From: Candidatus Aenigmatarchaeota archaeon
GTDB taxonomy: Archaea; Aenigmatarchaeota; Aenigmatarchaeia; CG10238-14; SCSR01
Direction: 5' to 3'
NCBI GenBank assembly: GCA_018304615.1
Contig: JAGVVV010000009.1
Location: 45,160 to 109,159, forward strand
Length of the DNA: 64,000 bases
How positions within the stretch are numbered: the first letter of the stretch is position 1; each line of letters begins with the position of its first letter. Under the pieces are notes generated by a model. It worked only from the letters and a program-made list of their open reading frames with translations. It did not search any database and was not told the DNA's origin. The position numbers and the translations under genes are program-made. This document shows, piece by piece, positions 20,602 through 60,247 of the stretch.

Positions 20602-20633
20602 TCATAATTATTTCTCAAATCAGAAATCTAATT

Positions 20634-26852: not shown

Positions 26853-26897
26853 TTTTTGTCGACCTTATTATAATTTGAAAAAGGTTCAATTTAAGCC

Positions 26898-42197: not shown

Positions 42198-42228
42198 TCT
42201 TTAATTGAACATAAGTGAATTTCAATTT

Positions 42229-43053
42229 ATGGATGTTGTAGAAAAAACTGTCCGTGACATTAAATCGATAAAAGTTCAAGGAGCTTATCACATTGCAATT
42301 GCAGCCGTCAAGGCGTACATGAAGGCTAAAGACAAGAAAAAGGCTGTGAAAAAACTCGTAGCTTCACGGCCGACTGAACCGATGCTAAGAAATTCACTGA
42401 TGTATGTGGAGAAAATGGGTGGTGGTAAAGAACTCCTAATGAAACTCGAAGAAGATTTAAAAAAAATTATTGAATACGGCTCTGAAAAAATAAAAGACGG
42501 GATGATTGTTTATACACACTGTCATTCTTCGATTGTAAATGACATTTTAATTCATGCAAAAAAATCTGGAAAGAAGTTTGAAGTTCATGTTACTGAGACA
42601 AGACCTTTTTTTCAAGGAAGATTAACTGCGAAACAATTGTCAGCTGCAAGAATTCCTGTAACTCTTTTTGTTGATTCTGCTGCAAGATTGGCCTTGAAGA
42701 AAGCAGATCTGATGATGATTGGCGCTGATGCGATAACAGCAGAAGGTTATGTCATAAACAAAATAGGAAGTGAGTTGGTTGCAGATGTTGCAAACAATTA
42801 TCAAATTCCAGTTTTCGTGTGCACTCATTCGTGGAAGTTTGATCCTAAGACAATTTTCGGTTTTGATGAGGAGATTGAAAGGAGGGAAGCAAAAGAAATT
42901 TGGAAGAATCCTCCGCGTGGAGTAAAGATTAGTAATTACGTTTTCGAGAAAGTTAATCCTGAAAAATTGACTGCGATAATTTCAGAGTTGGGAATTTTCA
43001 AGCCTGCTACATTTATAGTAGAAGTGAGAAAAAGTTACGGTTGGATGAATTAG
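42229..43053 (+). CDS. e2b2: ribose-1,5-bisphosphate isomerase (eIF-2B alpha/beta/delta family)
   Basis: ATG at 42229 preferred over the TTG at 42205; HCHSS, VTETRPFFQG, GADAITAEGYVINKIGS motifs; RuBisCO and AMP phosphorylase lie in the same window. Confidence 0.7.
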   Translation: MDVVEKTVRDIKSIKVQGAYHIAIAAVKAYMKAKDKKKAVKKLVASRPTEPMLRNSLMYVEKMGGGKELLMKLEEDLKKIIEYGSEKIKDGMIVYTHCHSSIVNDILIHAKKSGKKFEVHVTETRPFFQGRLTAKQLSAARIPVTLFVDSAARLALKKADLMMIGADAITAEGYVINKIGSELVADVANNYQIPVFVCTHSWKFDPKTIFGFDEEIERREAKEIWKNPPRGVKISNYVFEKVNPEKLTAIISELGIFKPATFIVEVRKSYGWMN

Positions 43054-45503
43054 CTTGGATTCACGTAGTAGGTGTTGACGAGTACATTGAAGTCTGGATT
43101 CCATACGAAAGTGATGACTCTTACTGACCCCCCTATATTCACGTCATAATTTGTGTAAGGTGAATTGCTCACCACCAACGACTGGCTTAGAATGTTTGCA
43201 TTTCCTAGTGGAACTATAAAGGTGAGAGACTGGTCTGCCGCTACACTGTATTGATAGGATGCCAGGGAAAACTGTTGGTTACCTGTGCTGGGACTGCATG
43301 AACCTAACCAAGGATCACAGTTCCAATTTGGTGGGCAGCCGCATTTGTTACAATAGTCAGTGAAAATTGAATGCCCGACATTAACACAATATTTAGGTGG
43401 TTTTCCAGATAAGCAAGATCCTACTTCAGCAACATCACTACCAGATTGGCATTTCGGAAGTTGGATTGGGGGCAGGGTCTGCTGGTTGATACTACAACAC
43501 ATTTTTCCCCCGGCAATTCCACTTTGTGGGCATAATCCTTGCAACGGGGATTCACCATTTAGGCAAACGGTTTTGCATACTGCATCTTTCAAACTGGAGC
43601 ACGGTGACAAACTAGGAGGCGTCGTAGTTGGTGTCGTGCCTGCGGGAACACAACAAGTTTTTCCTCCAGTTATCCCGCCTTGAGAACAACCGAGAGCACC
43701 CAAGTCCTGTTCGCCGTTCAAACAAACTGTCTTGCAATTTCCTCCTTTCGATGAACAGGTAGGTTGCGGAGGAGGTTTGGGCTTGCAAGTATTTGTTGTA
43801 GAATCACAACCGCCATCGCAATAAGTAGTTGACATAAAGCTAATATAACCGCACTGACCTTTTGGGCAATTGTCTCCGGCATTACCAAATACTTGGCATC
43901 CTTTGCCATAACTGTTAAGGAAATCTCCATCACATTTTTTGATGGTGGATGTATCTGCAAGACAATTCTCGTACCCGTTTAGTCGAGGGGAGCATTGCCC
44001 TTTAATCGGGTTACAGTACATATCAGATGGACAACTGCAAGTATTACAATCGTCTCTCAAATAAGGAGAGCCATATGGGTTTGAATAGCATCTTGCTGGT
44101 TTTGTTTTGGAACAAGTGCCGACTGAAGTTCCGTCAGAACAAGTTTGTTTTGATGGGGAAGTTGAAGTAGATGTTGTGGTTGTAGTAGTTGCTCCACATG
44201 CACTGAAACATGTGTTTTGATTCGTGTAACAATTACCCGTTAAAGCACAAAAGTAAGAACCGGAACTGCATTTGACACCACCGATTGCATTGCAGCCTTG
44301 TGGTGGAGCAACTGTTCTGCAGAAATTATCACAAAGAGTTGATTGAGGAATGCAGCAAGTTCTTTGACCTTCCTGAGGTTGAGTACAATCTACACCGCCT
44401 ACATCTGTTTCACCACTGGAGCAAACTGTTCTACAATTGCCACCTCGAGACGCACACTGTGCACCTTGGCCTGATGTAGTTGTTGTAGTGGTTGTAGGAA
44501 CGCAACAATTCTTTCCATCCGTAGGATTGCAATCATAACTTGATACGGGAGTAAATCCAGATGGGCATGTTGTCGTTCCCACACATTGTGCAGTTGGTCC
44601 CCCACCTCGACCGCATGATGGAAGACATTGTCCGTTTTTTACATTCCAGTCTGGATAGGGTTTATCAGATGGACATGTACCGGGTGTTGTAGTAGTCCCA
44701 CTACATCTGAAACAATTAGTTGAAACATATTGGCATGTACGACTATTTGCTTGACACTCTACATCACAATTCCTCCGATCTGTGAATTCACATTGGGGCT
44801 GGGTTGTAGTAGTCGTTGCATAACAGGGAAGATTGCCTGTATAAACACATTTTTCACCACAGCACCTGTAAGTTCCAGTACAAGTTGGTCCAGCACCTCC
44901 GACTTGTGTGTTGTCAGGACGACCTTTGCAAACATCAGCTGAAGGAGTTGAAGTGGTTGTAGGACTCACAAAACACTGTGAATTTGAAGAACAAGAACTT
45001 CCAGCTTTACCACCTGTACAAGCGTTCGTGCATCTTCCACTCTGGCATATACAAGTAGTCGAACTTATTCCACAAGCTGAAAGGCAAGTTGATGCACTAC
45101 CATAACATTGGTTAGTAGCAGCACAATAGTATTGACCGAAACCGCATGAAGCTCCGCCAGAACCTTTGCAATTTCCTGTGTAACCACAGTTAGGATTGCA
45201 TGTAGGAGCACTAGGAGGAACTGTAGTGCTAATACCACAATCACTCTTGCACCACGCCTGACTTCCTCCAGAATAACATCCGTTTGTTTTTCCACAATAA
45301 TAATAACCCCAACTGCAAATGACTCCACCACTTCCAGAACAACCTTGTGATTGTGCTGTGGTTGTACATGTCGGATCGCATGCAGGTCTTCCTCCTGTTC
45401 CTGTAGCAAATGTTTGTGGAGCAAAAATATTCTGGAACCATTGGAACAGATTAGCCTGACCCGTAGCTGGTTGAGTTTGCGAGGGGAATAAAACATTTTG
45501 CAA
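43050..45503 (-). CDS. 817-aa extracellular cysteine-rich mosaic protein (13 disulfide modules plus Cys-free C-terminal domain)
   Basis: Track start is a TTG; 92 Cys by my count, in modules of 6 or 8 separated by poly-Thr/Pro linkers; the frame stays open upstream to 45644 and encodes a signal-peptide-like segment without a canonical start. Confidence 0.7.
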   Translation of the reverse strand: MQNVLFPSQTQPATGQANLFQWFQNIFAPQTFATGTGGRPACDPTCTTTAQSQGCSGSGGVICSWGYYYCGKTNGCYSGGSQAWCKSDCGISTTVPPSAPTCNPNCGYTGNCKGSGGASCGFGQYYCAATNQCYGSASTCLSACGISSTTCICQSGRCTNACTGGKAGSSCSSNSQCFVSPTTTSTPSADVCKGRPDNTQVGGAGPTCTGTYRCCGEKCVYTGNLPCYATTTTTQPQCEFTDRRNCDVECQANSRTCQYVSTNCFRCSGTTTTPGTCPSDKPYPDWNVKNGQCLPSCGRGGGPTAQCVGTTTCPSGFTPVSSYDCNPTDGKNCCVPTTTTTTTSGQGAQCASRGGNCRTVCSSGETDVGGVDCTQPQEGQRTCCIPQSTLCDNFCRTVAPPQGCNAIGGVKCSSGSYFCALTGNCYTNQNTCFSACGATTTTTTSTSTSPSKQTCSDGTSVGTCSKTKPARCYSNPYGSPYLRDDCNTCSCPSDMYCNPIKGQCSPRLNGYENCLADTSTIKKCDGDFLNSYGKGCQVFGNAGDNCPKGQCGYISFMSTTYCDGGCDSTTNTCKPKPPPQPTCSSKGGNCKTVCLNGEQDLGALGCSQGGITGGKTCCVPAGTTPTTTPPSLSPCSSLKDAVCKTVCLNGESPLQGLCPQSGIAGGKMCCSINQQTLPPIQLPKCQSGSDVAEVGSCLSGKPPKYCVNVGHSIFTDYCNKCGCPPNWNCDPWLGSCSPSTGNQQFSLASYQYSVAADQSLTFIVPLGNANILSQSLVVSNSPYTNYDVNIGGSVRVITFVWNPDFNVLVNTYYVNPS

Positions 45504-45695
45504 TGCTCTAGATAAATCGTCAAGGGTATATCCAAAAACAGAAGCACTAAGAGCTAAGAGAGAAAAGGAAATAGCAAATAGGAGGATAAAAGTTCGGTTG
45601 GAGAATTTACTTTTACAATTCTTACTACCTGATCTAACAGACGTTCAAAATCCCCTAGAATAATATTCACTTTTTAAATATAATACTTCTTTCAC

Positions 45696-46511
45696 TTATA
45701 CCTGAACAGAATTTGAAGCTCTGATACTTGCGTCAGGCAAATCGCAGATGAGGCCTATGTAATATGTAGTTCCAGGGCTCAATCCTGTGAACGCGCATGT
45801 TCCTGAATAATCGGTGCTAGAGCAACTTTTCGCACCTGGAGAAGTTGCTACAACTCTGGATTGTCCGCTTGTCAGAGCGTTCGGGCATGACCAATTACAT
45901 GATATGCTGGTTCCATCGCTGCCCTTGTTGCATGAAACAGATGCAGAACCTCCACCGGTGCCTCCTGAACTACCTCCCGTACCTGTAGTCCCGCTGCATG
46001 GAGAATTGGAATTGAATCCATAGTATGTGAACCAATTCTCATCAGTCTTCAAGTTGCAGGTTCCCTGATCAGGGAATATCTGTTTTACTTTCTGATTAGC
46101 TTTAGTCACATCCTGATAACTTTGGTAGTATGCCGAGCACAATGTCTGCACGCAATCTTGTGGTATGAGTTTTCCGTTGTCAGTTACACATGGAAACATG
46201 TTCATGCAATAAATGGCATTCTCACACGCCTTGAAGCCTAGCAAACCTTCTGAATCGATAGAATCAATTCTACCATTCCTGTTCAGATCTGTATCACCTG
46301 TCAATTTTGTTGAACACCATTTGACGATGTTCCCTTCTTTGCAGAGCTGATCACAACCCTGCTTGAATTCCCCGTACTGGAGAGATTTTCTTACATCACT
46401 CAGACCTCCGAGTCCGCTTGTCTGATTCAAAAATAATCTGATGACGACGAAAGCTACTACAAGTAGTATCAAAAGCCCGATTATCATTTCAAGACTCATT
46501 TGTCCTTTCAT
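45696..46511 (-). CDS. type IV pilin-like protein with EF-hand-like Ca loop and FN3/Ig-like C-terminal domain
   Basis: 271 aa; MKG-QMSLEMIIGLLILLVVAFVV leader; DLNRNGRIDSID loop; G/S/T linker; FTGLSPGTTYYIGL. Confidence 0.6.
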   Translation of the reverse strand: MKGQMSLEMIIGLLILLVVAFVVIRLFLNQTSGLGGLSDVRKSLQYGEFKQGCDQLCKEGNIVKWCSTKLTGDTDLNRNGRIDSIDSEGLLGFKACENAIYCMNMFPCVTDNGKLIPQDCVQTLCSAYYQSYQDVTKANQKVKQIFPDQGTCNLKTDENWFTYYGFNSNSPCSGTTGTGGSSGGTGGGSASVSCNKGSDGTSISCNWSCPNALTSGQSRVVATSPGAKSCSSTDYSGTCAFTGLSPGTTYYIGLICDLPDASIRASNSVQV

Positions 46512-46518
46512 ATTCTCA

Positions 46519-47592
46519 CTAATCGATTGGTCTGCATTCTTGCCTTGTCACATCAAAGCTATCCCAGAAACTCCAAACAAGTGGCTGCAAGCCTTTTGAT
46601 GAAGGTATGTTAAACTTGTTATCGGTGAGTTTGAAGTTGACCAAGACTCCGCCTAGACTGCTTCCTGTTTGTGCGGAGACGATTTTTCCACCCAGCGAAT
46701 CAAAAACATTTGTCTTCAAACCAGAAGCTGAAGTTTTTTCATAGCAGAGATTGTCAGCAAATGTAGATTTCTGGCATGGAGTATTCAAACATGCAACAGG
46801 ATTTGCAGTGTCAAGACATTTTATTTCATAAGAGCATTTCACATACTGGGGATCCTCTTTGAATAATTCTTCATAGTGTTTGCATACATTCTGGATTGCA
46901 ACTTCAATCTTCTGCGGCATTGATGTAGGACTGGTGCATTGATCTCTTATGGAAGAGAATATCACTCTGACTGGAAGATTATTTTTTGTATCGTCATAAA
47001 GTCTGTAATATATCCACCAGAACCTGTTATTTGTGTTGTCAACCGCCAAATCACCTGAATAGGTTACAGAAGCAGGACTTGTAACTGTAATCACTCCACC
47101 TTGAGTCGCAGTTGATTTGAACGACTCGCATCCTTGAGAACTTCTCTGGTTGCACGCATCCTTGCCATAATCGTAGATTCCATTACATTGATATGGAGAG
47201 GCGGTAACACCGAGCTGCGCAATCTGGCTGTCTTTCAAACCTTTAAAGTATGTCTGCAAGTAGACATTGGATGTGTTACTCATGGAAAAATGAACTTCAT
47301 TTGATTCTGGAGGAACTGGCTCGTTGTTGCAATACCAAAATGTTCTAGATGCCTGACTTCCACCATTTGCTGCTACCTCAAGTGATGCGCTTTGAGTAGA
47401 GTAAGACAAATCCTGACTCAAGAATCTCTTCGCAGTTTCGAGTCTGGTAATTGCAATGTCTTTTGGTCCGACATTTGAAATTGTGCCGGCGAACTGAGTA
47501 CCGGATGAAAGATTGTTATAAGACCATACAGAGACCATCAAGACTCCAATCAGTGCAATGATTACGATTGTGGCATATGCGATGCCTTTCAT
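46519..47592 (-). CDS. type IV pilin-like protein, large ectodomain (hypothetical)
   Basis: 357 aa; MKG-IAYATIVIIALIGVLMVSVW leader; multiple Cys pairs. Confidence 0.55.
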   Translation of the reverse strand: MKGIAYATIVIIALIGVLMVSVWSYNNLSSGTQFAGTISNVGPKDIAITRLETAKRFLSQDLSYSTQSASLEVAANGGSQASRTFWYCNNEPVPPESNEVHFSMSNTSNVYLQTYFKGLKDSQIAQLGVTASPYQCNGIYDYGKDACNQRSSQGCESFKSTATQGGVITVTSPASVTYSGDLAVDNTNNRFWWIYYRLYDDTKNNLPVRVIFSSIRDQCTSPTSMPQKIEVAIQNVCKHYEELFKEDPQYVKCSYEIKCLDTANPVACLNTPCQKSTFADNLCYEKTSASGLKTNVFDSLGGKIVSAQTGSSLGGVLVNFKLTDNKFNIPSSKGLQPLVWSFWDSFDVTRQECRPID

Positions 47593-47629
47593 AAAATAAG
47601 TATGGTTCGAGGGGGGTATAAAAGTTTAC

Positions 47630-51648: not shown

Positions 51649-51695
51649 AGCACGACCTCTTAGATAATTTTGATTGTGGTATATAATATTGGTGC

Positions 51696-52256: not shown

Positions 52257-52294
52257 ATGTATAATTTTGTTGCAGATTGTTATAACTTTAGAAT

Positions 52295-52756: not shown

Positions 52757-52757
52757 C

Positions 52758-53309: not shown

Positions 53310-55261
53310 CCATCCATATAATCTTTTAGTTCATGCTCTTTTAACCATTTGTAGCTTCCGGCAGAATATTTTGTTTGTGCACCATAGCACATCATCCAGC
53401 CATCCTGATAACTTCCTGTGCATGCCCCTACGTTTGGATTCGGACAGTAACTGTCTTGCCCCACTCCCCTACATGCACATCCAATCATTGCGCAATAGTT
53501 TGGATTAGAAAGTGGAGAAGGATCACATTCATGACACAAGTTCTGAGAATGACCGATCTCGTGCAAAACAGTATTTGTATAGCTCGCCCAAGTGACGCTC
53601 TGGTCTGAAGGGATGTCTCTGGCTGCACCTATACACATACCACCGCTGCCGTCACATGATATCGGACCACGCTGGAAAAGACCGACGACCTTATTGTAAA
53701 CAGTTGCATATTTGCTTTTTTTGGCACAAGCTAAGACATTGTCATTGCAAAGGGGCCAAAGATAAGGACACGAAACACTACATTCGCCTGGTTCGACGAA
53801 CACTGCTTCTACTCTGCTCTGCGGATTTCGACATTCACTCAACGGACTGAGTTTAATAAATAAGTCGACGACTTTTTGAGCACTGGCTTTGAAGGATGCT
53901 GCCTGACCAGAGCTGTAATCTATAGGAACAAATAGTAATTTGTAAGTTTTTCTAAAGAAGCAATCCGTCCCGTTCCAGATTTTTCCTTCGGGACAACAAT
54001 GGCCTGAAGTGTCGCATTGAAGATTCGTCGCACATTGGCTGTTGCAGTTACATTTGCTCTTCTCTTTCAAATCTTTATTGACAGTACATCCGAGTGAGTC
54101 AGCTTTTCCATCACTTGGGCAGCAGACAAAATTGAAATCGCTGCAAGTTGTTCCTGCTCCAAGGCAATCTTTACTGCAAGACTGGCAGTTTTCACTGGCA
54201 GTTGTATTGCAGATTCCATTCCCACAACATTCAGTTCTTGGACCCTGAGCTCCTGATGGGCAATCTGGATCATTGTCGAATACGGTACAGGAAGGCGAAC
54301 ACCAGCTGTTGCAAGTCTTATCACAAACGAAACATTTCGAATCGGTGGTTCCGTTGGGATTTCCAGGATAAACAATTCCGTTGCAGTCAGGATCGCAGAT
54401 ATTTTTATCTTTTATACAATCCTGATCGCAAATTCCGTCTTTCACGCCGTTTGAATTTGGGTCACAAATACCTCCATACTTCTGCCTGAAAGTCTGGTCA
54501 GTCAACTTCAACCATTCGCAACCGGGGTCATAGGCTTTCAAAGGATTCAATCTATCTGAATAACAATCTGGATTGCATTTTCCATCAGAAATTCTTTTAT
54601 TGGAATCATCTATGTCAACCACTCCATTGTTGTTCGAATCTATGCAAGCAAGATTGCAAGGAATTCCATGGCGCTGGCCATCGTCACACACAGGATCGCA
54701 TACTCTCTTCAAAATGCAACTTGCATCACAGATGTTGTCTGTCGGATCGCAACCCTTGATGGCTCTGGCTATGAAAGTGTCTGGAGAAGGAGATCCCTGC
54801 TGCCACATGTCTACGAAATCAAAAGTTTTTAGGGGATAGTCACCTTGGTTTCCTATAATGATCAGTGCTCCCACACCGAGAGGCTTGGTCAGATTGTAAA
54901 AAATTAAATTTCCTCCGCCTGCGATACCTGAGAGTTTACTTATCCTGATTATGTCTTCTTGGGTCAACGAGAATGTGAGAGAAACATTTGCGTGAACGTC
55001 TCCGCACTGACCTTGATAGACAGCCTGAAGAAGTGTCTGGAAGTCTTGTATTGAAATTTCCTTACCAGCATATGCCTCGCAAATGTTGTAAGGGGATGTT
55101 TGAATGACAGTACTTACAAATTTCTTGAACACATTTCCAAGTTGAGTTGGAATCTGTGAGCCCAGAGTTAATCCTTGAGATTGTATGATGAGAATTGAAA
55201 CGATGATGATTACAAGAAACAGGGCTATAATTCCAATCAAGTTAATTGTATCAGCATCCAC
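53297..55261 (-). CDS. signal-anchored cysteine-rich protein with G-I-C-D-x-x-C repeats, EF-hand-like loop and metzincin-spaced zinc protease motif
   Basis: 654 aa; GTG start overlapping the upstream TAG by 1 nt; MDADTINLIGIIALFLVIIIVSILII; DSNNNGVVDIDD; GICDPNS/GICDQDC/NICDPDC; VLHEIGHSQNLCH (HExxHxxxxxH). Confidence 0.6.
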   Translation of the reverse strand: MDADTINLIGIIALFLVIIIVSILIIQSQGLTLGSQIPTQLGNVFKKFVSTVIQTSPYNICEAYAGKEISIQDFQTLLQAVYQGQCGDVHANVSLTFSLTQEDIIRISKLSGIAGGGNLIFYNLTKPLGVGALIIIGNQGDYPLKTFDFVDMWQQGSPSPDTFIARAIKGCDPTDNICDASCILKRVCDPVCDDGQRHGIPCNLACIDSNNNGVVDIDDSNKRISDGKCNPDCYSDRLNPLKAYDPGCEWLKLTDQTFRQKYGGICDPNSNGVKDGICDQDCIKDKNICDPDCNGIVYPGNPNGTTDSKCFVCDKTCNSWCSPSCTVFDNDPDCPSGAQGPRTECCGNGICNTTASENCQSCSKDCLGAGTTCSDFNFVCCPSDGKADSLGCTVNKDLKEKSKCNCNSQCATNLQCDTSGHCCPEGKIWNGTDCFFRKTYKLLFVPIDYSSGQAASFKASAQKVVDLFIKLSPLSECRNPQSRVEAVFVEPGECSVSCPYLWPLCNDNVLACAKKSKYATVYNKVVGLFQRGPISCDGSGGMCIGAARDIPSDQSVTWASYTNTVLHEIGHSQNLCHECDPSPLSNPNYCAMIGCACRGVGQDSYCPNPNVGACTGSYQDGWMMCYGAQTKYSAGSYKWLKEHELKDYMDGCGQ

Positions 55262-55821
55262 TAGACGGCCACCTCGATTCTATGAAAGAAAGAATTGTAA
55301 TTTATGAAAACCGAAGTATCGTTTAAATTCACTCTTCCACCTGTCCAATAGATTTTATTTTGTTTTCCGCAATCATAGGCTTGATTCTCCAAATCAAGCA
55401 AGTTGTTCTCAAGGAATGAGCAGTAACCTTTTGATTTGAGGACATCCGTTATTTCTTTCTCTCCGAACTCAGAAGGAACATTTTTAATCAGAATCTCGTA
55501 GCACTGAAAAGATATTCCTACTTTCCCACTGTTGGTTTTTTCCTTCCAGCACGTCCACACATAATCCGCAATCTTAACTCTCAAGTCTGAGCTTGAAGTA
55601 GGCCTTAAGATGACATTTTCTTTTGTAGGAGTGATGTTGCATTGAGATACAGAAGGTTTCAAAGATTGGGGTAGAGGGATTACAAGAATTATTTGATAGA
55701 GTTTGCAGATGGCTGGACCTGTGTAGTTGGGAAGAAACATGTTCATCGCGGTTAAGATTATCCAAACTCCCACTAGTGCAATCAAAACATCTGCGACGAG
55801 CTTGAATGACATTCCTTTCAT
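55261..55821 (-). CDS. small type IV pilin-like protein, CW-motif family
   Basis: 186 aa; MKG-MSFKLVADVLIALVGVWIILTA; IADYVWTCWKE; C-terminal INYNSFFHRIEVAV. Confidence 0.55.
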   Translation of the reverse strand: MKGMSFKLVADVLIALVGVWIILTAMNMFLPNYTGPAICKLYQIILVIPLPQSLKPSVSQCNITPTKENVILRPTSSSDLRVKIADYVWTCWKEKTNSGKVGISFQCYEILIKNVPSEFGEKEITDVLKSKGYCSFLENNLLDLENQAYDCGKQNKIYWTGGRVNLNDTSVFINYNSFFHRIEVAV

Positions 55822-56276
55822 GGAGAGCTCACTATTATTTGGGGACCTAACTCTTTGAATTCTATCTTGACTATTTGGCTGTTGAAGTTTGCGGTTATCG
55901 AAGTTCTTTTCTTCACATCAGAAGGTAGGCTGCTCAGTATTGTGTTAGCATCTGCACTGAAGTATGGAGGTTTTCTGGCTAGCAACAAGTAACAAACCGT
56001 ATCCTTCTGATCTGGAACTGGAAGATTTGAGTTGCAGCTGTCACAGCTTTGAATATACGCGGAGATTTCAGAAGATATGAATGAATCCTTCTCAATCGGT
56101 TTCTTATCTGGACAATTGGCCTCACTTGGGCAATTGAAGAACTTGCAAAGGAATTTGTTTATCGAAGTCTGGATGTCCCTGGAGAAATTCAAAATCAAAC
56201 CTATAATGACTGCAACGGTTACAAGTAGAATGATTATTCTGAAAACAAACTCCAGCGCGAGAGCTGCTCCCTTCAT
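55818..56276 (-). CDS. small type IV pilin-like protein (related to the CW-motif family)
   Basis: 152 aa; MKG-AALALEFVFRIIILLVTVAVIIGLIL; ISAYIQSCDSC; C-terminal VKIEFKELGPQIIVSS. Confidence 0.55.
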   Translation of the reverse strand: MKGAALALEFVFRIIILLVTVAVIIGLILNFSRDIQTSINKFLCKFFNCPSEANCPDKKPIEKDSFISSEISAYIQSCDSCNSNLPVPDQKDTVCYLLLARKPPYFSADANTILSSLPSDVKKRTSITANFNSQIVKIEFKELGPQIIVSSP

Positions 56277-56314
56277 AATTTAACTAAGGATTTCTTATAA
56301 TAAATTAGAATAAC

Positions 56315-57466
56315 ATGAAAGGTATCGCTGTCTGGATATGGCTCATAGGCGGGATAATTGTCGGAATGATCATGTTTGTTCTTTTTTTCCAGTTGATGAG
56401 CTACCTGACACTTAGCAGGGCAAGGGAGGATGCAAGACAGAGTTTTGATGATTTAACCAGCACTGTCAATGCTCTGTGCGAGGGTAGACCTGGTATTCAG
56501 TCCTCGAAGAAGTTTGTCTTTCCAGATTCTGTATCAATAGTTTATTCAACTTCAGATCCGAAGACGTATGTAGAGAAAAATAATCGTACTTATGGAAAGT
56601 TTGCTTGCCTTAAATTCCAAAAGGAGCAATTTTGCGAAGGAGTGAGTTGTGATTTAGAGTTTCACCCAATAAAGGCGGAGGAAAACCTTTTAGGAGTAGT
56701 AGACACCTTGTTAGGAAGATCAAGCTACCAAGAATATCTGGTGAAGTTGACCAAGACAGAATGTGGGGTGTCTGCTTTGAACGTTGGAGAAAACCCATCT
56801 TCAACATGTGGGCTATGTAAAACTGTATCTTTAATCAGATGCCAGACGTCAGTTATCTTGGGGCTTGTAAGTAGAGACGTCCTTGTCATAACAGACATGT
56901 CAAGACTGAAAGAATGTTGCACTATAGATAACAGTATAATCAAGTTACTCAATAATGCGGCAGGTTATCTTGGTGGAAAAAAGATTTTGATAGTTTGGGA
57001 ACTTAACCAGTATGATCCTTCCTCTCAATCTAAATTGCCTATAATAAATTCATTGAGCAGTTCTGGATTCATGGTCGGTTTCCTGAGGCACACAACTCAA
57101 TTGACCGATGACATTTTGAAAAATTACGATCAGCTCTGGCTTTTCCGACCAGGCTGGTGCCTCCCTCAAATAGTTGAATGTGGTGGGTCAGTAACTTGGA
57201 GCAATTCAGAAATAAATGCAATTGGAAACTTTCAAAATCGTGGAGGAAAGATTTTCTTGTTTACTGACACTTCTGCTGGAAATGTCCAAGACCAAGACAT
57301 GGTGAACAAGATACTAAAACAGCTGAACACGACTGCGACTGTCGATGGAACAACTGTGTGCGGACGCGGAGATCAAACCGTCATGACAACAGATATTACA
57401 AAGAACTCTGTAACTAAGGGTTTGGACAACTTTAACGTCACTGCTGCGACGAGAATAATTTGTTAG
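56315..57466 (+). CDS. type IV pilin-like protein with extra C-terminal alpha/beta domain; only plus-strand gene in the locus
   Basis: 383 aa; MKG-IAVWIWLIGGIIVGMIMFVLFF; N-half paralogous to 51696-52256; C-half KKILIVWELNQYD...YDQLWLFRPGW...GGKIFLFTDT (weak ThuA/GATase1-like impression). Confidence 0.55.
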   Translation: MKGIAVWIWLIGGIIVGMIMFVLFFQLMSYLTLSRAREDARQSFDDLTSTVNALCEGRPGIQSSKKFVFPDSVSIVYSTSDPKTYVEKNNRTYGKFACLKFQKEQFCEGVSCDLEFHPIKAEENLLGVVDTLLGRSSYQEYLVKLTKTECGVSALNVGENPSSTCGLCKTVSLIRCQTSVILGLVSRDVLVITDMSRLKECCTIDNSIIKLLNNAAGYLGGKKILIVWELNQYDPSSQSKLPIINSLSSSGFMVGFLRHTTQLTDDILKNYDQLWLFRPGWCLPQIVECGGSVTWSNSEINAIGNFQNRGGKIFLFTDTSAGNVQDQDMVNKILKQLNTTATVDGTTVCGRGDQTVMTTDITKNSVTKGLDNFNVTAATRIIC

Positions 57467-58044
57467 GCAATTATCACAATCTTGTTTTGTACAGTATCGT
57501 ACTTAATCAAAATCAGCCGCTGATCGTTTATTACATTTCCTGAAACTTGCCAGACTATGTTGTCACTCCCTCCGCAGTTCCCAGAATAGTCGGAGAGTTG
57601 TCCAGTTGCATTGATAATCTTGGAATTTTCAAGGACGTCGCAGCCATTTTCTCTTTCAATGATCTGTGTCATGTATGACTCTGTAACAGGTCCGAATGAA
57701 TCCTCTACAAACAGGTTGTAGCAGACAGTAGAATTAGTAACCTTAATTCTTTGGCCCTGCCAACATGAAATTGCAAAAGCAGCAATCAATCTTGCAAACT
57801 CTTCTTTGTTCTCTGCTGATTTGTCGCATCCCTGTCTGCAGATGGAAATTGATGTAACAGGCTTGTTAAGTCCTTTACATAAATCTGAAGTTTGCTTCAA
57901 TGTGTTCTCATAAAAGTAGCAGAAAGTCTTTTTCATTGTATCTGAGAACGGACCGACTAAGAACATTAGTAAGACGATGATTCCGACAATACCTACAGTG
58001 AGGTATCCGATTGTGTTTAATTCCAGACCTTTATGTCCCAACAT
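57463..58044 (-). CDS. small type IV pilin-like protein, CW-motif family
   Basis: 193 aa; MLGHKG-LELNTIGYLTVGIVGIIVLLMFLV; IAAFAISCWQG; C-terminal IKYDTVQNKIVIIA; overlaps the platform gene by 14 nt. Confidence 0.55.
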   Translation of the reverse strand: MLGHKGLELNTIGYLTVGIVGIIVLLMFLVGPFSDTMKKTFCYFYENTLKQTSDLCKGLNKPVTSISICRQGCDKSAENKEEFARLIAAFAISCWQGQRIKVTNSTVCYNLFVEDSFGPVTESYMTQIIERENGCDVLENSKIINATGQLSDYSGNCGGSDNIVWQVSGNVINDQRLILIKYDTVQNKIVIIA

Positions 58045-60193
58045 TTGAAATTCCTCCTAGGGTATCTGTGTCGAAAAAGCTTCCAGAGATTACTATCCCG
58101 ACAACAAGGACAATCGAATAGAAGATTAAGGCCATCATCACGCCCTTTCCTATCAACACATTTCTTGTAGTCTTGTCGAAACCATTCTTGATTCCGTTCA
58201 AGAAGTATGATAGGATGACAACTATTTCGAGCATGTAGATGCCGACAACCAATTGGAAGACCGTGGCAGGAATGACTTTTTCTATGCTAGCAAAACTTAG
58301 AATCTGGCCGAACTGGACGGTGCCGCCATGGATGAAAGAGCCTGACAAATTGAACGTTTCTTCGATGCTCTTCATGAATTCAGATAATTTTCCCAAAAGT
58401 CTGATTATGAAGGTAGCCATACCAGCTACGATACCTGTTATGAATGGGGCGATGAAACTTGACTGCAGTTGGATTGCAGCTGAAACTTCATCGAGCAGTT
58501 CTTTCAGAAGATTCTCAACATTCTTTGTTTTCATCAGGAAGGAAGAGATTGTTTTCGATGCAGTGGAGAGGATGATGGAAGACTTTTCAGCGGCAGAGAC
58601 GATTATCGACATGACATCTTTTATCAGGAACGATGGATACCTTCTCATCACTCCATATTGCTCGTCAAAGATTGCCCTTTTTAGTGTCATGCCGAGTTCG
58701 CGAATGTTCTTCTGGATGTTAAGGAAAAATATGAACATGGGCGAGTCTTGAAGCTTGTACTGCCTGTATTTGTCGAGGGTTTCTTCAAGAGCCGTTTCTA
58801 TAGGAACGCCAGACGAGAGAACGTCTCCCAAACGGAAAAGTCCTATCTGGAATTCGTCCTCTATGAGCTTGATGTCGTTTCTTATCTTCAGCCTCTGATA
58901 GCTGGAACCGTAAAAGTAAATCACCAATGCGAGACCCATCCCCCAGATACCGCTAAGACTGTAGAATGTGAATGAAAGAGCGTTGTCATACTCAGCTTTC
59001 ATTTCAAATCTCCATCTGTCAGCGAAATCAGGAAGGTCTTTAACAGCAAAAAATTTTGATGTCAGGACGTATAGATAGGTGAAAGTTGGGATGAGCAAAA
59101 AGAACATGATTATGAGTGAGATCGGCAATATAGGAACTAGATATTTTTTTCCTGAGATTTTCAAAATCAATTTTCCTTGAGGAGGGAGATCAGGATGATG
59201 AGAAATGTCTGGATATGCAAAGGCTCCAGGACGTTTTGCAATTGTCCTTCTAAGATAAAAATAATTCAGAAGGGGAAGGACGACAATATATCCGAAAATA
59301 AGGAATCCCGGGTTTAGGTCTTCGCTCAAGAATATAGCAATCATCGGGAACATGACCAAACCCATGATCGGAAATGTAATTCCCATTGTGTGAATAAGCA
59401 TTATCGGAGTTCTCAGTTCTCTGGAGTAGTCTTTCATTTTTTCATAAGTAGAATCAAGTACGAAATTAAGAGTCTTGTCAAGAGTCTTCTCCCTTGCCTG
59501 CTCGTTGGTCTCGAGAGCGAGGGCTTGGATGAGGTTCATGGCTTCGACGAATTCCTTGTCCCACAGCAGCCATTTTTCAATCTTAGAGCCGATTGCCTGA
59601 TTAATCGTATAGTATTTCCTTATTTCTACGTCCCAGATTATTTTTTTCAGATCTTTTCCTATCGGTCCTGAGGCATGTGCGGCTGCGAATCTTATCGCTC
59701 CTTCAACTTGGGGATTGAGTCTGAGATAGATTACCATGTATAGAATTACCTTAACTGTCTCGTCATTCGCTTTGATTTTTGTTACTGCAGACAAGTAGGC
59801 AGGATAGGTGTAGAACAGATAAGCGAAGATGAAAGGGAAGAAAGGTAAGAAATATCCCAAGAACGGAAATACTAAACTCAGAGGGATGGAAATTCCTAAA
59901 CCGATAATTATTGTGAATACTGTGAAAGAGAGGACCTCGCTAGGCGTCACATCGATGTCTGTGGTGAGCAAATGTTTCGACAAAGAGTTCGAAATGCTCT
60001 GTGGGGCTTGCATTTTCAGAGTTTTGCCCGCAAATTTGCATCCACTTACGAAGAAGCCTGTGAATCCGCCTTCGTCTTCAGGATGCTCCTCTTGAATGAA
60101 CGTCTTATAATCTTGAGAAATCCACTGCTTTGCCTCGCTTTCTACTTGCTCTTCAGAAGGTATTTTCTTGAAGAAACGGTCCAAGAAACTCAT
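58031..60193 (-). CDS. polytopic membrane platform protein, FlaJ/TadC/PilC-like (two T2SSF-type repeats)
   Basis: 720 aa; at least 9 TM; two cytoplasmic helical segments (AIRFAAAHASGPIGKDLKKIIWDVEIRKYYTINQAI... and RLGDVLSSGVPIETALEETLDKYRQ...), each followed by TM clusters, as in type IV filament platform proteins. Confidence 0.55.
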   Translation of the reverse strand: MSFLDRFFKKIPSEEQVESEAKQWISQDYKTFIQEEHPEDEGGFTGFFVSGCKFAGKTLKMQAPQSISNSLSKHLLTTDIDVTPSEVLSFTVFTIIIGLGISIPLSLVFPFLGYFLPFFPFIFAYLFYTYPAYLSAVTKIKANDETVKVILYMVIYLRLNPQVEGAIRFAAAHASGPIGKDLKKIIWDVEIRKYYTINQAIGSKIEKWLLWDKEFVEAMNLIQALALETNEQAREKTLDKTLNFVLDSTYEKMKDYSRELRTPIMLIHTMGITFPIMGLVMFPMIAIFLSEDLNPGFLIFGYIVVLPLLNYFYLRRTIAKRPGAFAYPDISHHPDLPPQGKLILKISGKKYLVPILPISLIIMFFLLIPTFTYLYVLTSKFFAVKDLPDFADRWRFEMKAEYDNALSFTFYSLSGIWGMGLALVIYFYGSSYQRLKIRNDIKLIEDEFQIGLFRLGDVLSSGVPIETALEETLDKYRQYKLQDSPMFIFFLNIQKNIRELGMTLKRAIFDEQYGVMRRYPSFLIKDVMSIIVSAAEKSSIILSTASKTISSFLMKTKNVENLLKELLDEVSAAIQLQSSFIAPFITGIVAGMATFIIRLLGKLSEFMKSIEETFNLSGSFIHGGTVQFGQILSFASIEKVIPATVFQLVVGIYMLEIVVILSYFLNGIKNGFDKTTRNVLIGKGVMMALIFYSIVLVVGIVISGSFFDTDTLGGISNVGT

Positions 60194-60247
60194 TAAATTG
60201 TATTTCGGTTTCCTAAACTTTAAAGGTTCTTAAATTAAAATTATTTC

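What the first reader, a model, noticed from the sequence alone, without database searches (positions are those of the whole stretch)
43050..60193. 17-kb operon-like locus: FlaJ/TadC-type platform gene plus eleven pilin-leader genes carrying disulfide-rich enzyme/adhesin modules, with no ATPase or prepilin peptidase in cis
Seen in sequence:
- From 60193 down to 43050 the minus strand is almost continuously coding. Gaps are tiny or the genes overlap (48907-48910, 55261, 55818-55821, 58031-58044).
- Ten products start M-K-G followed at once by a roughly 20-residue hydrophobic helix: MKGQMSLEMIIGLLILLVVAFVV, MKGIAYATIVIIALIGVLMV, MKGQIFEVMGFVMLAIAIIAVIILL, MKGQMSYILKPISLVMTIALLLFL, MKGSVILSETMLETTAILISFILIVLVV, MKGVAAWIWIVMSVVLAIIVIVF, MKGILETIPEFFQIIAGIAVALILLLLV, MKGMSFKLVADVLIALVGVWIIL, MKGAALALEFVFRIIILLVTVAVIIGL, MKGIAVWIWLIGGIIVGMIMFVLFF. 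An eleventh starts MLGHKG-LELNTIGYLTVGIVGIIVLL.
- This is the [K/R]-G|hydrophobic layout of archaeal class III (type IV pilin) signal peptides.
- The first gene (720 aa) looks like a two-repeat T2SSF/FlaJ/TadC platform protein.
- Cargo domains include a vWA/MIDAS, a transglutaminase-like Cys-His-Asp core, an HEIGHSQNLCH zincin, EF-hand-like loops and several hundred cysteines.

Established knowledge: type IV filament machines need a platform protein, a PilB/FlaI-type ATPase and a prepilin peptidase. In described archaeal loci the ATPase gene normally sits next to the platform gene. Here the platform gene abuts RuBisCO, and no ATPase or peptidase lies within at least 17 kb downstream or 3.8 kb upstream.

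Inference: a Tad/Epd-like filament or pseudopilus whose minor-pilin set displays hydrolases and adhesins. That would be a candidate cell-contact or host-attachment apparatus for a small episymbiotic archaeon. I do not know of a described system with this composition.
Basis: partly seen in the sequence, partly recalled or inferred. Interest (0 to 1): 0.9.

Follow-up and report, generated by a model that had tools for sequence, protein, structure and literature searches.

The report
Second-platform pilus module with modular pilins
This is a real gene cluster of an uncultured Aenigmarchaeota (DPANN) archaeon that encodes a second membrane platform and about a dozen pilin-like surface proteins, several carrying adhesin or protease domains; it belongs to a type IV pilus-like system whose motor ATPase gene lies 16.5 kb away, just outside the window.

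Summary
The cluster is real. It has 15 ORFs. Eleven start with a short leader ending in K-G followed by a hydrophobic helix, against 1-2 of 55 ORFs elsewhere in the window (p ~1e-8). Orthologues keep [K/R][G/A] behind leaders of variable length, and one family has an invariant Glu at +5.

The 720-aa protein is a divergent T2SSF/TadC platform. It scores below threshold itself, but homologues pass Pfam's threshold in both halves.

Cargo domains:
- vWA is supported by an AlphaFold model and Foldseek.
- The transglutaminase-like protease has an invariant Cys-His-Asp.
- The HExxHxxxxxH zincin motif is conserved across its family.

- One gene (56315-57466) is on the + strand.
- The 817-aa protein has a Sec-type signal, not a pilin leader.
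- The 654-aa zincin belongs to a pilin-like N-terminal family.
- A FlaI/TadA-type ATPase gene with a paralogous platform gene and tiny pilin genes lies 16.5 kb upstream on the same scaffold.
- In other Aenigmatarchaeota the ATPase directly abuts this module.

No prepilin peptidase was found in about 96 kb examined.

Best reading: this is the minor/modular-pilin plus second-platform half of a two-platform, one-ATPase archaeal type IV filament system. That general layout is already described for archaea, and modular pilins are described for bacteria. I rate it a new variant of a known kind, of moderate interest.

The parts
58031..60193 (-). TadC2: 720-aa polytopic membrane platform protein (T2SSF/TadC/FlaJ family, divergent)
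   Evidence: Pfam T2SSF scores 16.9 bits, below threshold. Of 27 family members, 13 hit T2SSF. Homologues exceed the threshold in the first half (P0016, P0049, P0058) or the second half (P0108, P0109, P0100). It is 30% identical (E 5e-86) to the 707-aa gene next to the ATPase. Remote homologues P0116 and P0117 lie directly after T2SSE genes. NCBI names it a T2SS F family protein. The AF2 model is all-helical with pLDDT 80.8, but Foldseek found no PDB match.
57463..58044 (-). p193: pilin-like protein (MLGHKG|LELNT...), always the first gene after TadC2
   Evidence: It has a leader followed by a TM helix. Orthologues follow TadC2 in most loci and start MKG / MGKG / MRARKG. It is a paralogue of the 186-aa protein at 55261.
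56315..57466 (+). p383: pilin-like protein (MKG|IAVWIW...) with a ~200-aa C-terminal extension; encoded on the opposite strand
   Evidence: It is a paralogue of the 186-aa protein at 51696 (E 1e-13). The opposite orientation is conserved in L007, L015, L016, L018 and L019. The L007 orthologue has a 13-residue leader, MKGMEGMEGLTKG.
55818..56276 (-). p152: small pilin-like protein (MKG|AALALE...)
   Evidence: Orthologue leaders vary from 3 to 12 residues and end in K-G or K-A.
55261..55821 (-). p186a: small pilin-like protein (MKG|MSFKLV...)
   Evidence: There are 21 orthologues in related loci, nearly all with K/R-G.
53297..55261 (-). 654-aa modular protein: N-terminal pilin-like helix without K-G here, a Cys-rich CDPxC spacer with a Ca-loop, and a C-terminal HEIGHSQNLCH metzincin-like domain
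   Evidence: Reprolysin_5 scores 20.3 bits, below threshold. HExxHxxxxx[H/D] is conserved in 11 of 15 family members. Orthologues in L023-L025 start MKG / MRG / MKA-LA, so the family is pilin-like. It shares the Cys-rich repeat region with the 662-aa protein. It contains an EF-type loop.
52758..53309 (-). p183: Sec-type signal peptide plus C-terminal TM anchor; conserved accessory protein, not pilin-like
   Evidence: None of 6 orthologues has a [KR][GA] leader, which makes this family an internal negative control.
52295..52756 (-). p153: small pilin-like protein (MKG|ILETIP...)
   Evidence: All 8 orthologues have [KR]G, with leaders of 3-41 residues, e.g. MSVVSRKG in L007.
51696..52256 (-). 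p186b: small pilin-like protein (MKG|VAAWIW...)
   Evidence: Distant orthologues start MPE[LV]WVY without K-G.
49660..51648 (-). 662-aa modular pilin-like protein: GTG start (fMet-K-G), Cys-rich CDPxC spacer, C-terminal transglutaminase-like cysteine-protease core
   Evidence: Transglut_core scores 21.1 bits for the whole protein and 22.9 for the C-terminal fragment, against a threshold of 23. Seven of 13 family members hit it. Cys, His and Asp are invariant (C127/H161/D194 of the fragment = C506/H540/D573). The best PDB sequence match is a LapG-type protease, 4u65_E, at E 0.16. Only 16 clusters exist among 1.84 billion representatives.
48907..49659 (-). p250: pilin-like protein (MKG|QMSYIL...)
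   Evidence: Longer homologues (450-467 aa) match it over part of their length; L008's 461-aa homologue has a precomputed Pfam VWA hit, and 5 of the 62 module proteins scanned hit VWA_2, though the scan does not say which.
47630..48910 (-). 426-aa modular pilin-like protein: MKG leader, ~57-residue N-terminal helix, small domain, then a vWA domain with MIDAS and Cys-rich insertions
   Evidence: There is no Pfam or PDB sequence hit. The AF2 model has pLDDT 82.2 and pTM 0.72, with a helix over residues 2-58. Foldseek against the PDB returns integrin beta I-like domains (E 2e-6), the pilus adhesin SpaC, BatB, VWF A1 and the S. sanguinis modular pilin PilB, 7ba2 (E 1.2e-4). D131, S133 and S135 (DxSxS) and S248-D249-E250 are invariant.
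46519..47592 (-). p357: pilin-like protein (MKG|IAYATI...) with an uncharacterised 330-aa ectodomain
   Evidence: Orthologues occur in L019, L025, L033, L036, L039 and L041.
45696..46511 (-). p271: canonical class III (type IV pilin) N-terminus MKG|QMSLE, a Ca-loop and a Cys-rich domain
   Evidence: In an alignment of 26 orthologues the leader varies from 0 to 7 residues, K/R-G is usually present, and Leu+4 and Glu+5 are invariant. Pfam Class_IIIsignal scores 14.7 bits, E 0.03, below threshold. It contains an EF-type loop.
43050..45590 (-). 817-aa (plus about 29 aa upstream) secreted Cys-rich (92 Cys) modular protein with poly-Thr linkers; Sec-type signal, not a pilin leader
   Evidence: The in-frame upstream extension reads ...SKFSNRTFILLFAISFSLLALSASVFG|YT, with no ATG, GTG or TTG start. 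There are no Pfam or NCBIfam hits.
60194..60247 (.). 54-bp AT-rich divergent intergenic region between the TadC2 and RuBisCO genes (putative bidirectional promoter)
   Evidence: The sequence contains TTTAAA- and TTAAATTAAAATT-type elements. A promoter role is inferred only.
56277..56314 (.). 38-bp AT-rich divergent intergenic region between p152 and p383
   Evidence: The sequence contains TTATAATAAATT. A promoter role is inferred only.

Best explanation
The locus is the 'second-platform plus minor/modular-pilin' module of a type IV filament (TFF) system that is conserved across Aenigmatarchaeota. It is not autonomous.

**The partner cluster.** It lies 16.5 kb upstream on the same scaffold, beyond the RuBisCO, AMP phosphorylase and Alba genes. 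It encodes:
- the FlaI/TadA-family ATPase;
- a paralogous platform, TadC1;
- 53-91-aa Flp/Epd-sized pilins, which are the likely major subunits.

**Proposed mechanism**
1. The eleven K-G-leader proteins insert into the membrane. The leaderless 654-aa relative may do the same.
2. Their short leader is removed after Gly by a class III (A24) signal peptidase encoded elsewhere.
3. The TadC2 platform, powered by the shared ATPase, extracts their N-terminal helices from the membrane and assembles them.
4. The small subunits (152-193 aa) form a priming or tip complex, or a short stalk.
5. The large subunits display a vWA/MIDAS adhesin, a transglutaminase-like cysteine protease and a metzincin-like protease on disulfide- and Ca2+-stabilised spacers.

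**Likely function.** Adhesion to another cell surface or a polymer, with local proteolysis or remodelling of it.

**Shown:** gene content, leader motifs, platform and ATPase homology, linkage, and domain identities.
**Inferred:** cleavage, ATPase sharing, filament assembly, location of the modules, and the target.
For: **Leaders**
- Eleven of 15 locus ORFs carry K-G plus a TM helix, against 1-2 of 55 elsewhere.
- Orthologues keep [KR][GA] behind leaders of 3-41 residues. The Sec-type p183 family has 0 of 6.
- The p271 family has invariant Leu+4 and Glu+5.

**Platform**
- T2SSF hits above threshold fall in both halves of family members.
- It is 30% identical to the ATPase-adjacent TadC1.
- Remote homologues lie immediately after T2SSE genes.

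**ATPase and linkage**
- P0145 (PF00437) is on scaffold_129 at record positions 20482-22728. TadC2 starts at 39225.
- The window is 100% identical to that scaffold over 15,970 nt, and L001 and L014 overlap perfectly.
- The same ~16-kb spacing occurs in an 838-kb contig whose TadC2 is 63% identical.
- The order is TadC2-p193-ATPase-TadC1 in L021 and L022, and the ATPase is adjacent in L048.
- Ten contig lengths are shared between the TadC2 and ATPase hit lists.

**Division of labour**
- Tiny pilins occur only in the upstream cluster, and they carry the same MKG leader.

**Cargo modules**
- vWA.
- Transglutaminase-like core.
- Zincin.
- Relatives swap in Peptidase_C25, GH43, dockerin and VWA.

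**Precedent**
- Archaeal loci with two TadC genes and one ATPase, and transglutaminase peptidases linked to T4P (PMC4858521; 10.64898/2026.04.22.720090).
- Modular pilins placed at the filament tip (PMC8179133).
Against: - No class III signal peptidase was found in the window, in L014 or L011 (about 96 kb of the scaffold), or within 10 kb of the platform gene in 40 related genomes.
- No Pfam pilin model reaches threshold.
- Foldseek found no solved platform structure matching the TadC2 model.
- hhalign found no internal repeat between the two halves of TadC2.
- ATPase sharing rests on linkage alone.
- Some orthologues lack the K-G leader (MPEVW..., MAQMSLE..., MEFDLI...), so cleavage is not universal.
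- No pilin-fold model was obtained for the small subunits.
- There is no expression or proteomic evidence.
Confidence: 0.7

Rival explanations
1. A bindosome-like display system. The K-G-leader proteins are processed and anchored in or just above the membrane as a short, non-extended pseudopilus or lattice. This presents hydrolases and binding domains for nutrient scavenging (degrading proteins or polymers in groundwater) rather than for contact with another cell.
For: - Cargo in relatives includes GH43/GH32, dockerin and C25 peptidase, i.e. polymer-degrading modules.
- The window locus has no tiny major-pilin gene.
- A recent survey proposes that proteins bearing a class III signal peptide (SPIII) functionalise archaeal TFF machineries for substrate scavenging (10.64898/2026.04.22.720090).
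Against: - No solute-binding-protein domain is present.
- The NCBIfam BasE match of the ATPase is 46 bits against a cut-off of 1000.
- vWA/MIDAS modules are typical adhesins, and the closest structural analogue that is a pilin is the tip adhesin PilB.
- The data cannot distinguish a short structure from a long one.
Confidence: 0.2
2. The MKG N-termini are ordinary uncleaved signal anchors. On this view the locus simply encodes membrane-tethered extracellular enzymes and adhesins next to an unrelated or degenerate platform paralogue, and no filament is assembled.
For: - Pfam pilin models are all below threshold.
- No peptidase was found.
- Some orthologues have no K-G.
Against: - A conserved [KR][GA] placed exactly before the helix, with leaders of variable length, together with an invariant Glu+5, is not expected for signal anchors.
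- The gene set is syntenic with TadC2 across the phylum.
- The ATPase-linked cluster uses the same leader on 53-106-aa proteins that are little more than one helix.
- TadC2 is conserved at 28-86% identity in 117 clusters, so it is not degenerate.
Confidence: 0.07
3. A type II-secretion-like pseudopilus. TadC2 and the small pilin-likes form a piston that exports the Sec-dependent Cys-rich proteins (the 817-aa protein, and the 832-aa protein upstream) through the S-layer.
For: Large Sec-signal Cys-rich proteins flank both clusters. An S-layer protein is encoded in the window.
Against: - There is no secretin-like or other conduit component.
- No T2SS-like function is established in archaea.
- The largest pilin-like proteins themselves carry the functional modules.
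Confidence: 0.03

Closest known systems
Archaeal 'clade 1' / 'System 1' (Epd-like) type IV pili of Methanococcales, Thermococcales and some DPANN (Makarova et al. 2016, PMC4858521; Sivabalasarma & Albers 2026, bioRxiv 10.64898/2026.04.22.720090)
   Same: - One secretion ATPase with two TadC-type platform genes.
- Many class III-signal minor pilins.
- Major pilins of about 70 aa without a globular domain, matched here by the 53-91-aa genes next to the ATPase.
- Adhesin-like large subunits.
- Genomic linkage with transglutaminase-family surface peptidases.
   Different: - The second platform and its pilins are separated from the ATPase by housekeeping genes (Alba, AMP phosphorylase, RuBisCO).
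- No EppA peptidase, FleN/MinD ATPase or DUF2341 adhesin was detected.
- The hydrolase domains are fused to pilin-like N-termini rather than encoded as stand-alone genes.
- Whether the ATPase belongs to clade 1 was not testable.
- The proteins escape Pfam and NCBIfam models.
Modular type IV pilins, e.g. Streptococcus sanguinis PilB (pilin module + vWA) and PilC (pilin + lectin) (Raynaud et al. 2021, PMC8179133)
   Same: - A class III leader and N-terminal helix followed by a grafted functional module.
- The model of the 426-aa protein matches vWA folds, including PilB itself (7ba2).
- Peptidase modules are also reported among bacterial modular pilins.
   Different: - This is an archaeal system with a three-residue M-K-G leader.
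- Three or more modular subunits sit in one locus.
- Cys-rich CDPxC and Ca-loop spacers link the helix to the module.
- Incorporation into a filament has not been shown.
Bacterial Tad/Flp pilus with pseudopilins TadE/TadF and vWA-containing TadG
   Same: - Flp-sized major pilins.
- Two platform proteins (TadB and TadC) with one ATPase (TadA). TadA is the best NCBIfam match of the ATPase, at 120 bits and far below the cut-off.
- A vWA-bearing pilin-like protein.
   Different: - Each platform here is a ~700-aa protein with two T2SSF-like halves.
- There is no secretin, TadD or TadZ.
- There are many more pilin-like genes, and they carry protease modules.
Saccharolobus bindosome assembly system (Bas) and archaeal binding proteins bearing a class III signal peptide (SPIII)
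   Same: Non-pilin functional proteins carry class III signal peptides and depend on a dedicated ATPase/platform pair for surface assembly.
   Different: - The cargo here is adhesin and protease, not solute-binding proteins.
- There is no BasE/BasF-level similarity.

Membership tests
Type IV filament (TFF) superfamily machinery | PilB/FlaI/TadA-type (T2SSE) secretion ATPase | tested here: met
   P0145 (748 aa) carries PF00437. It lies on the same scaffold, 16,496 bp upstream of the platform gene and outside the window. No such ATPase is inside the window.
Type IV filament (TFF) superfamily machinery | Polytopic platform protein with T2SSF (PF00482) domains | tested here: met
   The window protein is below threshold at 16.9 bits. 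Homologues pass the 25.2-bit threshold in the N-terminal half (27.5-28.5 bits) or the C-terminal half (25.4-33.9 bits). Thirteen of 27 members hit the model. The protein is a paralogue of the ATPase-adjacent gene. Structure search and the internal-repeat test were uninformative.
Type IV filament (TFF) superfamily machinery | Subunits with a class III signal peptide: short charged leader, Gly/Ala at -1, hydrophobic alpha-1N, often Glu+5 | tested here: met
   This is met at motif level, with invariant Glu+5 in the p271 family. At HMM level only a sub-threshold PF04021 hit was obtained (E 0.03).
Type IV filament (TFF) superfamily machinery | Class III signal peptidase (Peptidase A24: PibD/FlaK/EppA) | tested here: inconclusive
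   None was found in the window, in the L014 or L011 flanks, or near the platform gene in 40 related loci. About 53 kb of the scaffold and the rest of the genome could not be read.
Archaeal clade 1 / System 1 (Epd-like) T4P | One ATPase with two platform genes | tested here: met
   The ATPase, TadC1 (707 aa) and TadC2 (720 aa) are on one scaffold. The order is TadC2-p193-ATPase-TadC1 in L021 and L022.
Archaeal clade 1 / System 1 (Epd-like) T4P | ATPase belongs to the clade 1 arCOG | not testable with these tools
   No arCOG library or reference tree was available. The best NCBIfam matches are TadA (120 bits) and FlaI (117 bits), both far below their cut-offs.
Archaeal clade 1 / System 1 (Epd-like) T4P | Dedicated 9-TM EppA peptidase, FleN/MinD ATPase and DUF2341 adhesins in or near the locus | tested here: not met
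   No such Pfam families were found in the window or in the called genes of L001 and L014.
Archaeal clade 1 / System 1 (Epd-like) T4P | Major pilins of about 70 aa lacking a globular domain | tested here: inconclusive
   Genes of 53-91 aa with MKG/MRG leaders follow TadC1 in L014. They fit by size and leader, but show no family-level match.
Modular type IV pilins | N-terminal pilin leader and helix plus a grafted, independently folding functional module | tested here: met
   The 426-aa protein has a helix over residues 2-58 followed by a vWA fold. The 662-aa protein has a leader plus a transglutaminase-like core. The 654-aa family has a pilin-like N-terminus plus HExxH.
Modular type IV pilins | Incorporation into a filament | not testable with these tools
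   This needs structural or biochemical data.
vWA domain (MIDAS-containing) | Rossmann-like vWA fold with a DxSxS...T...D metal site | tested here: met
   Foldseek gives probability 1.00 to integrin beta I-like domains, VWF A1 and BatB, with TM-scores of 0.52-0.62 relative to small vWA targets. D131/S133/S135 and D249 are invariant. No sequence-model hit was obtained.
Transglutaminase-like cysteine protease superfamily (PF01841) | Cys-His-Asp triad in the G-x-C ... H ... D-x-T context; Pfam threshold | tested here: met
   C, H and D(xT) are invariant. The score is 22.9 bits against a threshold of 23, which is borderline. Seven of 13 relatives hit the model. Enzymatic activity was not tested.
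Metzincin/zincin metallopeptidase | HExxHxxGxxH/D zinc site (plus Met-turn) | tested here: inconclusive
   The window protein has HEIGHSQNLCH, with the third His in register but Asn in place of Gly. The motif is conserved in 11 of 15 relatives. Reprolysin_5 is below threshold. The Met-turn and the fold were not examined.
Bindosome (Bas) system | BasE/BasF-type ATPase and platform, and solute-binding cargo bearing a class III signal peptide (SPIII) | tested here: not met
   The BasE model scores 46 bits against a cut-off of 1000. No binding-protein domains are present.

The most novel reading that the evidence does not exclude
TadC2 may not be a redundant second platform. It could assemble its own dedicated structure: a short 'catalytic pilus' built almost entirely of modular pilins. 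Its tip would carry a vWA adhesin, a transglutaminase-like protease and a metzincin on disulfide- and Ca2+-rigidified spacers. The cargo cassette would be swapped between lineages (C25 peptidase, GH43, dockerin). An episymbiotic Aenigmatarchaeote would use this to grip and locally open the envelope of its host. This would be an archaeal, enzyme-armed type IV filament with no characterised counterpart.
Probability: 0.2. Interest if true: 0.75.

Novelty: new variant of a known kind. Interest (0 to 1): 0.45.

Why it matters
Cultivated DPANN archaea live attached to hosts, yet the molecules that make and exploit the contact are largely unknown.

This module is conserved across Aenigmatarchaeota and is invisible to standard annotation, where nearly every gene is 'hypothetical'. 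It gives a concrete, testable list of surface proteins:
- a second platform;
- about 12 pilin-like subunits;
- a MIDAS adhesin;
- two protease types.

It also extends the bacterial concept of modular pilins to archaea and to hydrolase cargo. Finally, it shows how a window-limited view can make a split but ordinary two-platform pilus system look as if it lacks an ATPase.

Tried and rejected
1. **Profile of the platform family against PDB sequences.** Only chance hits were returned.
2. **Foldseek of the full-length TadC2 model against the PDB.** Nothing scored below E 0.28. Full-length platform structures are probably too scarce, and the model could not be cropped.
3. **hhalign of the N-terminal half against the C-terminal half of TadC2.** No repeat was detected, probability 0.8%. 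The two-domain architecture rests instead on Pfam hits in either half of homologues.
4. **vWA by sequence.**
   - Pfam, NCBIfam and PDB phmmer were all negative.
   - hhalign against the long p250-family proteins (of which L008's is a confirmed Pfam VWA protein) gave only a weak C-terminal match, E 0.0034, probability 9%.
   - The question was settled by the AF2 model and Foldseek.
5. **One homology search with p193 and the 426-aa protein concatenated.** It returned only homologues of the 426-aa protein. No allowed alignment, and so no structure model, could be made for a small pilin-like subunit.
6. **Prepilin peptidase hunt.**
   - A regex for G-x-[GA]-D-x-K in multi-TM ORFs of all loci found nothing.
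   - Pfam on the 10 best multi-TM candidates near the loci found nothing.
7. **First genome-collection scan with the 27-sequence alignment.** It was repeated with 10 closer sequences.
8. **Mobile element or horizontally acquired island.** Considered and rejected: GC content (0.40-0.44) matches the flanks, and the module is syntenic across the phylum.
9. **The sigma-70 promoter and terminator scanner.** Not used, because the organism is an archaeon.

Full report
**What is in the sequence**

Fourteen are on the minus strand. The 383-aa gene at 56315-57466 is on the plus strand. It lies between a 38-bp AT-rich divergent intergenic region and a 4-bp convergent overlap, so this is not a single operon.

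Ten products begin M(V)-K-G followed directly by a predicted transmembrane helix, and an eleventh begins MLGHKG. By the same rule only 1-2 of 55 other ORFs in the window qualify, giving Fisher p 1e-8 to 7e-8.

The locus proteins contain 302 cysteines (5.4%), against 0.89% in the rest of the window. The only two matches in the window to an EF-hand-type loop pattern are in locus proteins.

The flanks are the archaeal AMP-salvage genes:
- an IF-2B-family protein, probably ribose-1,5-bisphosphate isomerase (42205-43053);
- form III RuBisCO (60248-61537);
- AMP phosphorylase (61853-63394).

The rest of the window is ordinary archaeal housekeeping: Nre, topoisomerase VI, aIF1A, tRNA splicing endonuclease and an S-layer protein. 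No T2SSE ATPase and no A24 peptidase is detectable anywhere in the window.

**Where it comes from**

The 720-aa protein occurs on 16 public contigs. The longest is a 149,732-bp Rifle aquifer scaffold (ANAN16-1...scaffold_129). NCBI assigns the protein to Candidatus Aenigmarchaeota and names it a 'type II secretion system F family protein'. The window is 100% identical to that scaffold over 15,970 overlapping bases.

**The platform**

The window protein scores only 16.9 bits on Pfam T2SSF, against a threshold of 25.2. The family evidence is stronger:
- It has 117 homologue clusters, almost all from Aenigmatarchaeota.
- Thirteen of 27 sampled members hit T2SSF.
- Individual members pass the threshold either in the first half (residues ~150-285) or in the second half (~435-590). 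The family therefore has the usual two-domain TadC/FlaJ architecture.
- Its most distant homologues (P0116 at 29% and P0117 at 23% identity) lie immediately downstream of T2SSE ATPase genes.

An AlphaFold model is confident (pLDDT 80.8) and all-helical. Foldseek against the PDB gave no significant match, and hhalign did not detect the internal repeat. I treat these two tests as uninformative rather than negative.

**The 'missing' ATPase**

I searched with the ATPases found next to P0116 and P0117. This returned P0145, a 748-aa PF00437 protein whose longest contig is also 149,732 bp. It lies on scaffold_129 at record positions 20482-22728. That is 16,496 bp upstream of the platform gene, equivalent to about 12.7 kb beyond the right end of the window.

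The genes that follow it are:
- a 707-aa paralogue of the platform, 30% identical over 600 residues, E 5e-86;
- six tiny genes of 35-91 aa, among them MKGVIELKW..., MKGVLELNW... and MRGISLPVN...;
- a 731-aa pilin-like protein;
- four further pilin-like proteins of 106-190 aa, together with a 153-aa protein that has an N-terminal hydrophobic helix but no K-G leader.

After these come Cys-rich secreted proteins, then Alba, AMP phosphorylase, RuBisCO, and then the locus in question.

The same ~16-kb spacing is present in an 838-kb contig whose platform is 63% identical. A scan of one genome per GTDB species gave 40 loci, which were 39 Aenigmatarchaeota or unclassified archaea and 1 Woesearchaeota. 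Among these:
- in L021 and L022 the order is TadC2, p193, ATPase, TadC1;
- in L048 the ATPase is divergently adjacent;
- in L035 and L036 TadC1 is 10 kb upstream.

Ten contig lengths are shared between the platform and ATPase hit lists. The locus is therefore one half of a two-platform, one-ATPase system, not a platform without a motor.

**The pilin-like proteins**

Orthologues from the related loci keep a [K/R][G/A] dipeptide immediately before the hydrophobic helix, while the leader varies from 3 to 41 residues. Examples are MGSKGQGMALE..., MSVVSRKGILES..., MKGMEGMEGLTKGITVW... and MFQVNKKGQMSLE....

The Sec-type 183-aa family, which sits in the same loci, has this dipeptide in 0 of 6 members. 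It serves as an internal control.

The 271-aa family aligns as a textbook class III signal: a variable leader, K-G, then Q-x-S-L-E with Leu+4 and Glu+5 invariant in 26 sequences.

Pfam's short Class_IIIsignal model reaches only 14.7 bits (E 0.03) on the window protein and none of its relatives.

The 654-aa 'zincin' lacks K-G here (MDADTINLIG...). Its relatives in L023-L025 begin MKG, MRG or MKA-LA, so it belongs to a pilin-like N-terminal family. Some distant orthologues of other families are also leaderless (MPEVWVY..., MAQMSLE...), which I cannot explain.

Paralogous pairs inside the locus are:
- 186 aa and 383 aa;
- 186 aa and 193 aa;
- the shared Cys-rich CDPxC region of the 662-aa and 654-aa proteins.

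The 817-aa protein is not pilin-like. An in-frame upstream extension encodes a Sec-type signal peptide, but without a canonical start codon.

**Cargo domains**

*vWA.* No sequence model recognises the 426-aa protein or any of its 20 homologues. An AlphaFold model built on those homologues has pLDDT 82.2 and pTM 0.72. It shows a 57-residue N-terminal helix, a small domain and a Rossmann-like domain. Foldseek matches that domain, with probability 1.00, to:
- integrin beta I-like domains;
- VWF A1;
- BatB;
- the pilus adhesin SpaC;
- the Streptococcus sanguinis modular pilin PilB.

The DxSxS motif (D131, S133, S135) and the SDE motif (248-250) are invariant.

*Transglutaminase-like.* The C-terminal 283 residues of the 662-aa protein have only 16 relatives among 1.84 billion representative proteins. 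These share an invariant Cys, His and Asp-x-Thr in the canonical contexts GxCxDH, RHA and LDAT. Seven of 13 hit Pfam Transglut_core, and the window fragment scores 22.9 bits against a threshold of 23. The best PDB sequence match is a LapG-type cysteine protease, with a weak E of 0.16.

*Zincin.* HExxHxxxxx[H/D] is conserved in 11 of 15 family members. Pfam Reprolysin models are below threshold.

*Cargo in relatives.* Across 62 module proteins from relatives, Pfam finds VWA (5), Peptidase_C25 (3), Reprolysin (2), GH43/GH32 (1) and dockerin (1). The N-terminal pilin-like part is therefore kept while the cargo is exchanged.

**How it most likely works**

Shown:
- a platform paralogue;
- a linked ATPase;
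- class III-type leaders;
- modular ectodomains;
- synteny across the phylum.

Inferred by analogy with characterised type IV filaments:
- leader removal after Gly by an A24 peptidase;
- extraction of the N-terminal helices from the membrane and their polymerisation by TadC2, driven by the shared ATPase;
- the small subunits forming a priming or tip complex;
- the bulky modular subunits sitting distally, as modelled for PilB (PMC8179133).

Flp/Epd-sized pilin genes occur only in the upstream cluster. The major filament subunit is therefore probably encoded there. The window locus would supply minor and tip subunits, or build its own short structure.

The main gap is the peptidase. None was found in about 96 kb of this scaffold or next to the platform gene in 40 related genomes. 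Archaeal prepilin peptidases are often encoded away from pilus loci; this last point rests on established knowledge of PibD and FlaK and was not tested here.

**Comparison with what is known**

- Makarova et al. 2016 (PMC4858521) describe archaeal clade 1 T4P loci with an ATPase, two TadC genes, at least five minor pilins and large adhesins. [quoted passage not shown]
- Makarova et al. 2019 (PMC6393860) show DPANN islands in which unannotated genes next to the ATPase and TadC genes are inferred to be divergent pilins.
- Sivabalasarma & Albers 2026 define 'System 1', with two platform genes, in methanogens and DPANN. They propose that proteins bearing a class III signal peptide functionalise these machineries.
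- Raynaud et al. 2021 (PMC8179133) establish modular pilins in bacteria, with vWA, lectin and peptidase modules, in more than 1,200 proteins including CPR bacteria.

The present locus works like these systems. I could not show membership of clade 1 / System 1, because the ATPase clade was not testable and EppA, FleN and DUF2341 were not found.

What is specific here:
- the split arrangement across housekeeping genes;
- the density of modular, hydrolase-bearing pilin-like genes under a dedicated platform paralogue;
- the Cys-rich and Ca-loop spacers;
- near-total invisibility to current family models.

I found no paper describing this Aenigmatarchaeota module.

**Verdict**

- The functional reading as a type IV filament with modular minor pilins is supported.
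- The claimed anomaly, no ATPase, is an effect of the window boundary.
- The general composition is already described.
- Novelty: a new variant of a known kind. Interest: moderate.

Noticed in passing
L002 2396-5011 (and sortase gene at L002 1618-2304); compare L001 3363-5861: In another Rifle sample, the Cys-rich secreted protein between the two pilus clusters starts with a bacterial-type prepilin motif (RAG|FTLVELLIVVAIVGLL) instead of the Sec signal seen on scaffold_129. It keeps the same C-terminus. A sortase gene sits just upstream. This is either a strain-level N-terminus swap or an assembly chimera.
   Followed up: no
window 9227-9898 (+): A 223-aa protein has an N-terminal TM helix, a Thioredoxin_4 match (24.1 bits) and a CDDC motif. 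It is a candidate extracytoplasmic disulfide oxidoreductase that could serve the very Cys-rich locus proteins.
   Followed up: no
window 28625-29476 (-), next to 26019-27821: A 283-aa protein starts MLLTKGQGKIDEFAFVLLAGLILIIVMIV, which may be a further class III-type leader outside the locus. It is adjacent to two proteins with lipobox-like signals (…SGC).
   Followed up: no
window 42205-43053, 60248-61537, 61853-63394; L008 4174-8193: The AMP-salvage genes (IF-2B-family isomerase, RuBisCO, AMP phosphorylase) are contiguous in a distant relative (L008). In this genome the 17-kb pilin module separates the isomerase gene from the RuBisCO gene.
   Followed up: partly
P0140, P0142, P0151, P0156, P0161 (homologues of the ATPase): Several Aenigmatarchaeota pilus ATPases are about 1,265 aa long and carry an intein with a LAGLIDADG endonuclease domain.
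   Followed up: no
L014 4932-9952; L055 3389-9913: A conserved block lies divergent from the ATPase gene. It holds 5-6 polytopic membrane proteins (165-201 aa), at least three of which look paralogous from their N-termini, plus two coiled-coil proteins. None has a Pfam match. They may be further machinery components.
   Followed up: no
L028, L029, L033, L036 (p186b family); L042, L044, L047, L052 (p271 family); window 53297-55261 and L007, L016, L018, L019 (zincin family): Some orthologues of the pilin-like families have no K-G leader and start directly with the mature-like sequence (MPEVWVY..., MAQMSLE..., MEFDLI...). They may be uncleaved variants, or their start codons may be miscalled.
   Followed up: partly
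window 45504-45590: The signal-peptide-coding part of the 817-aa ORF has no ATG, GTG or TTG start upstream. This suggests a non-canonical start codon or a sequence error.
   Followed up: partly
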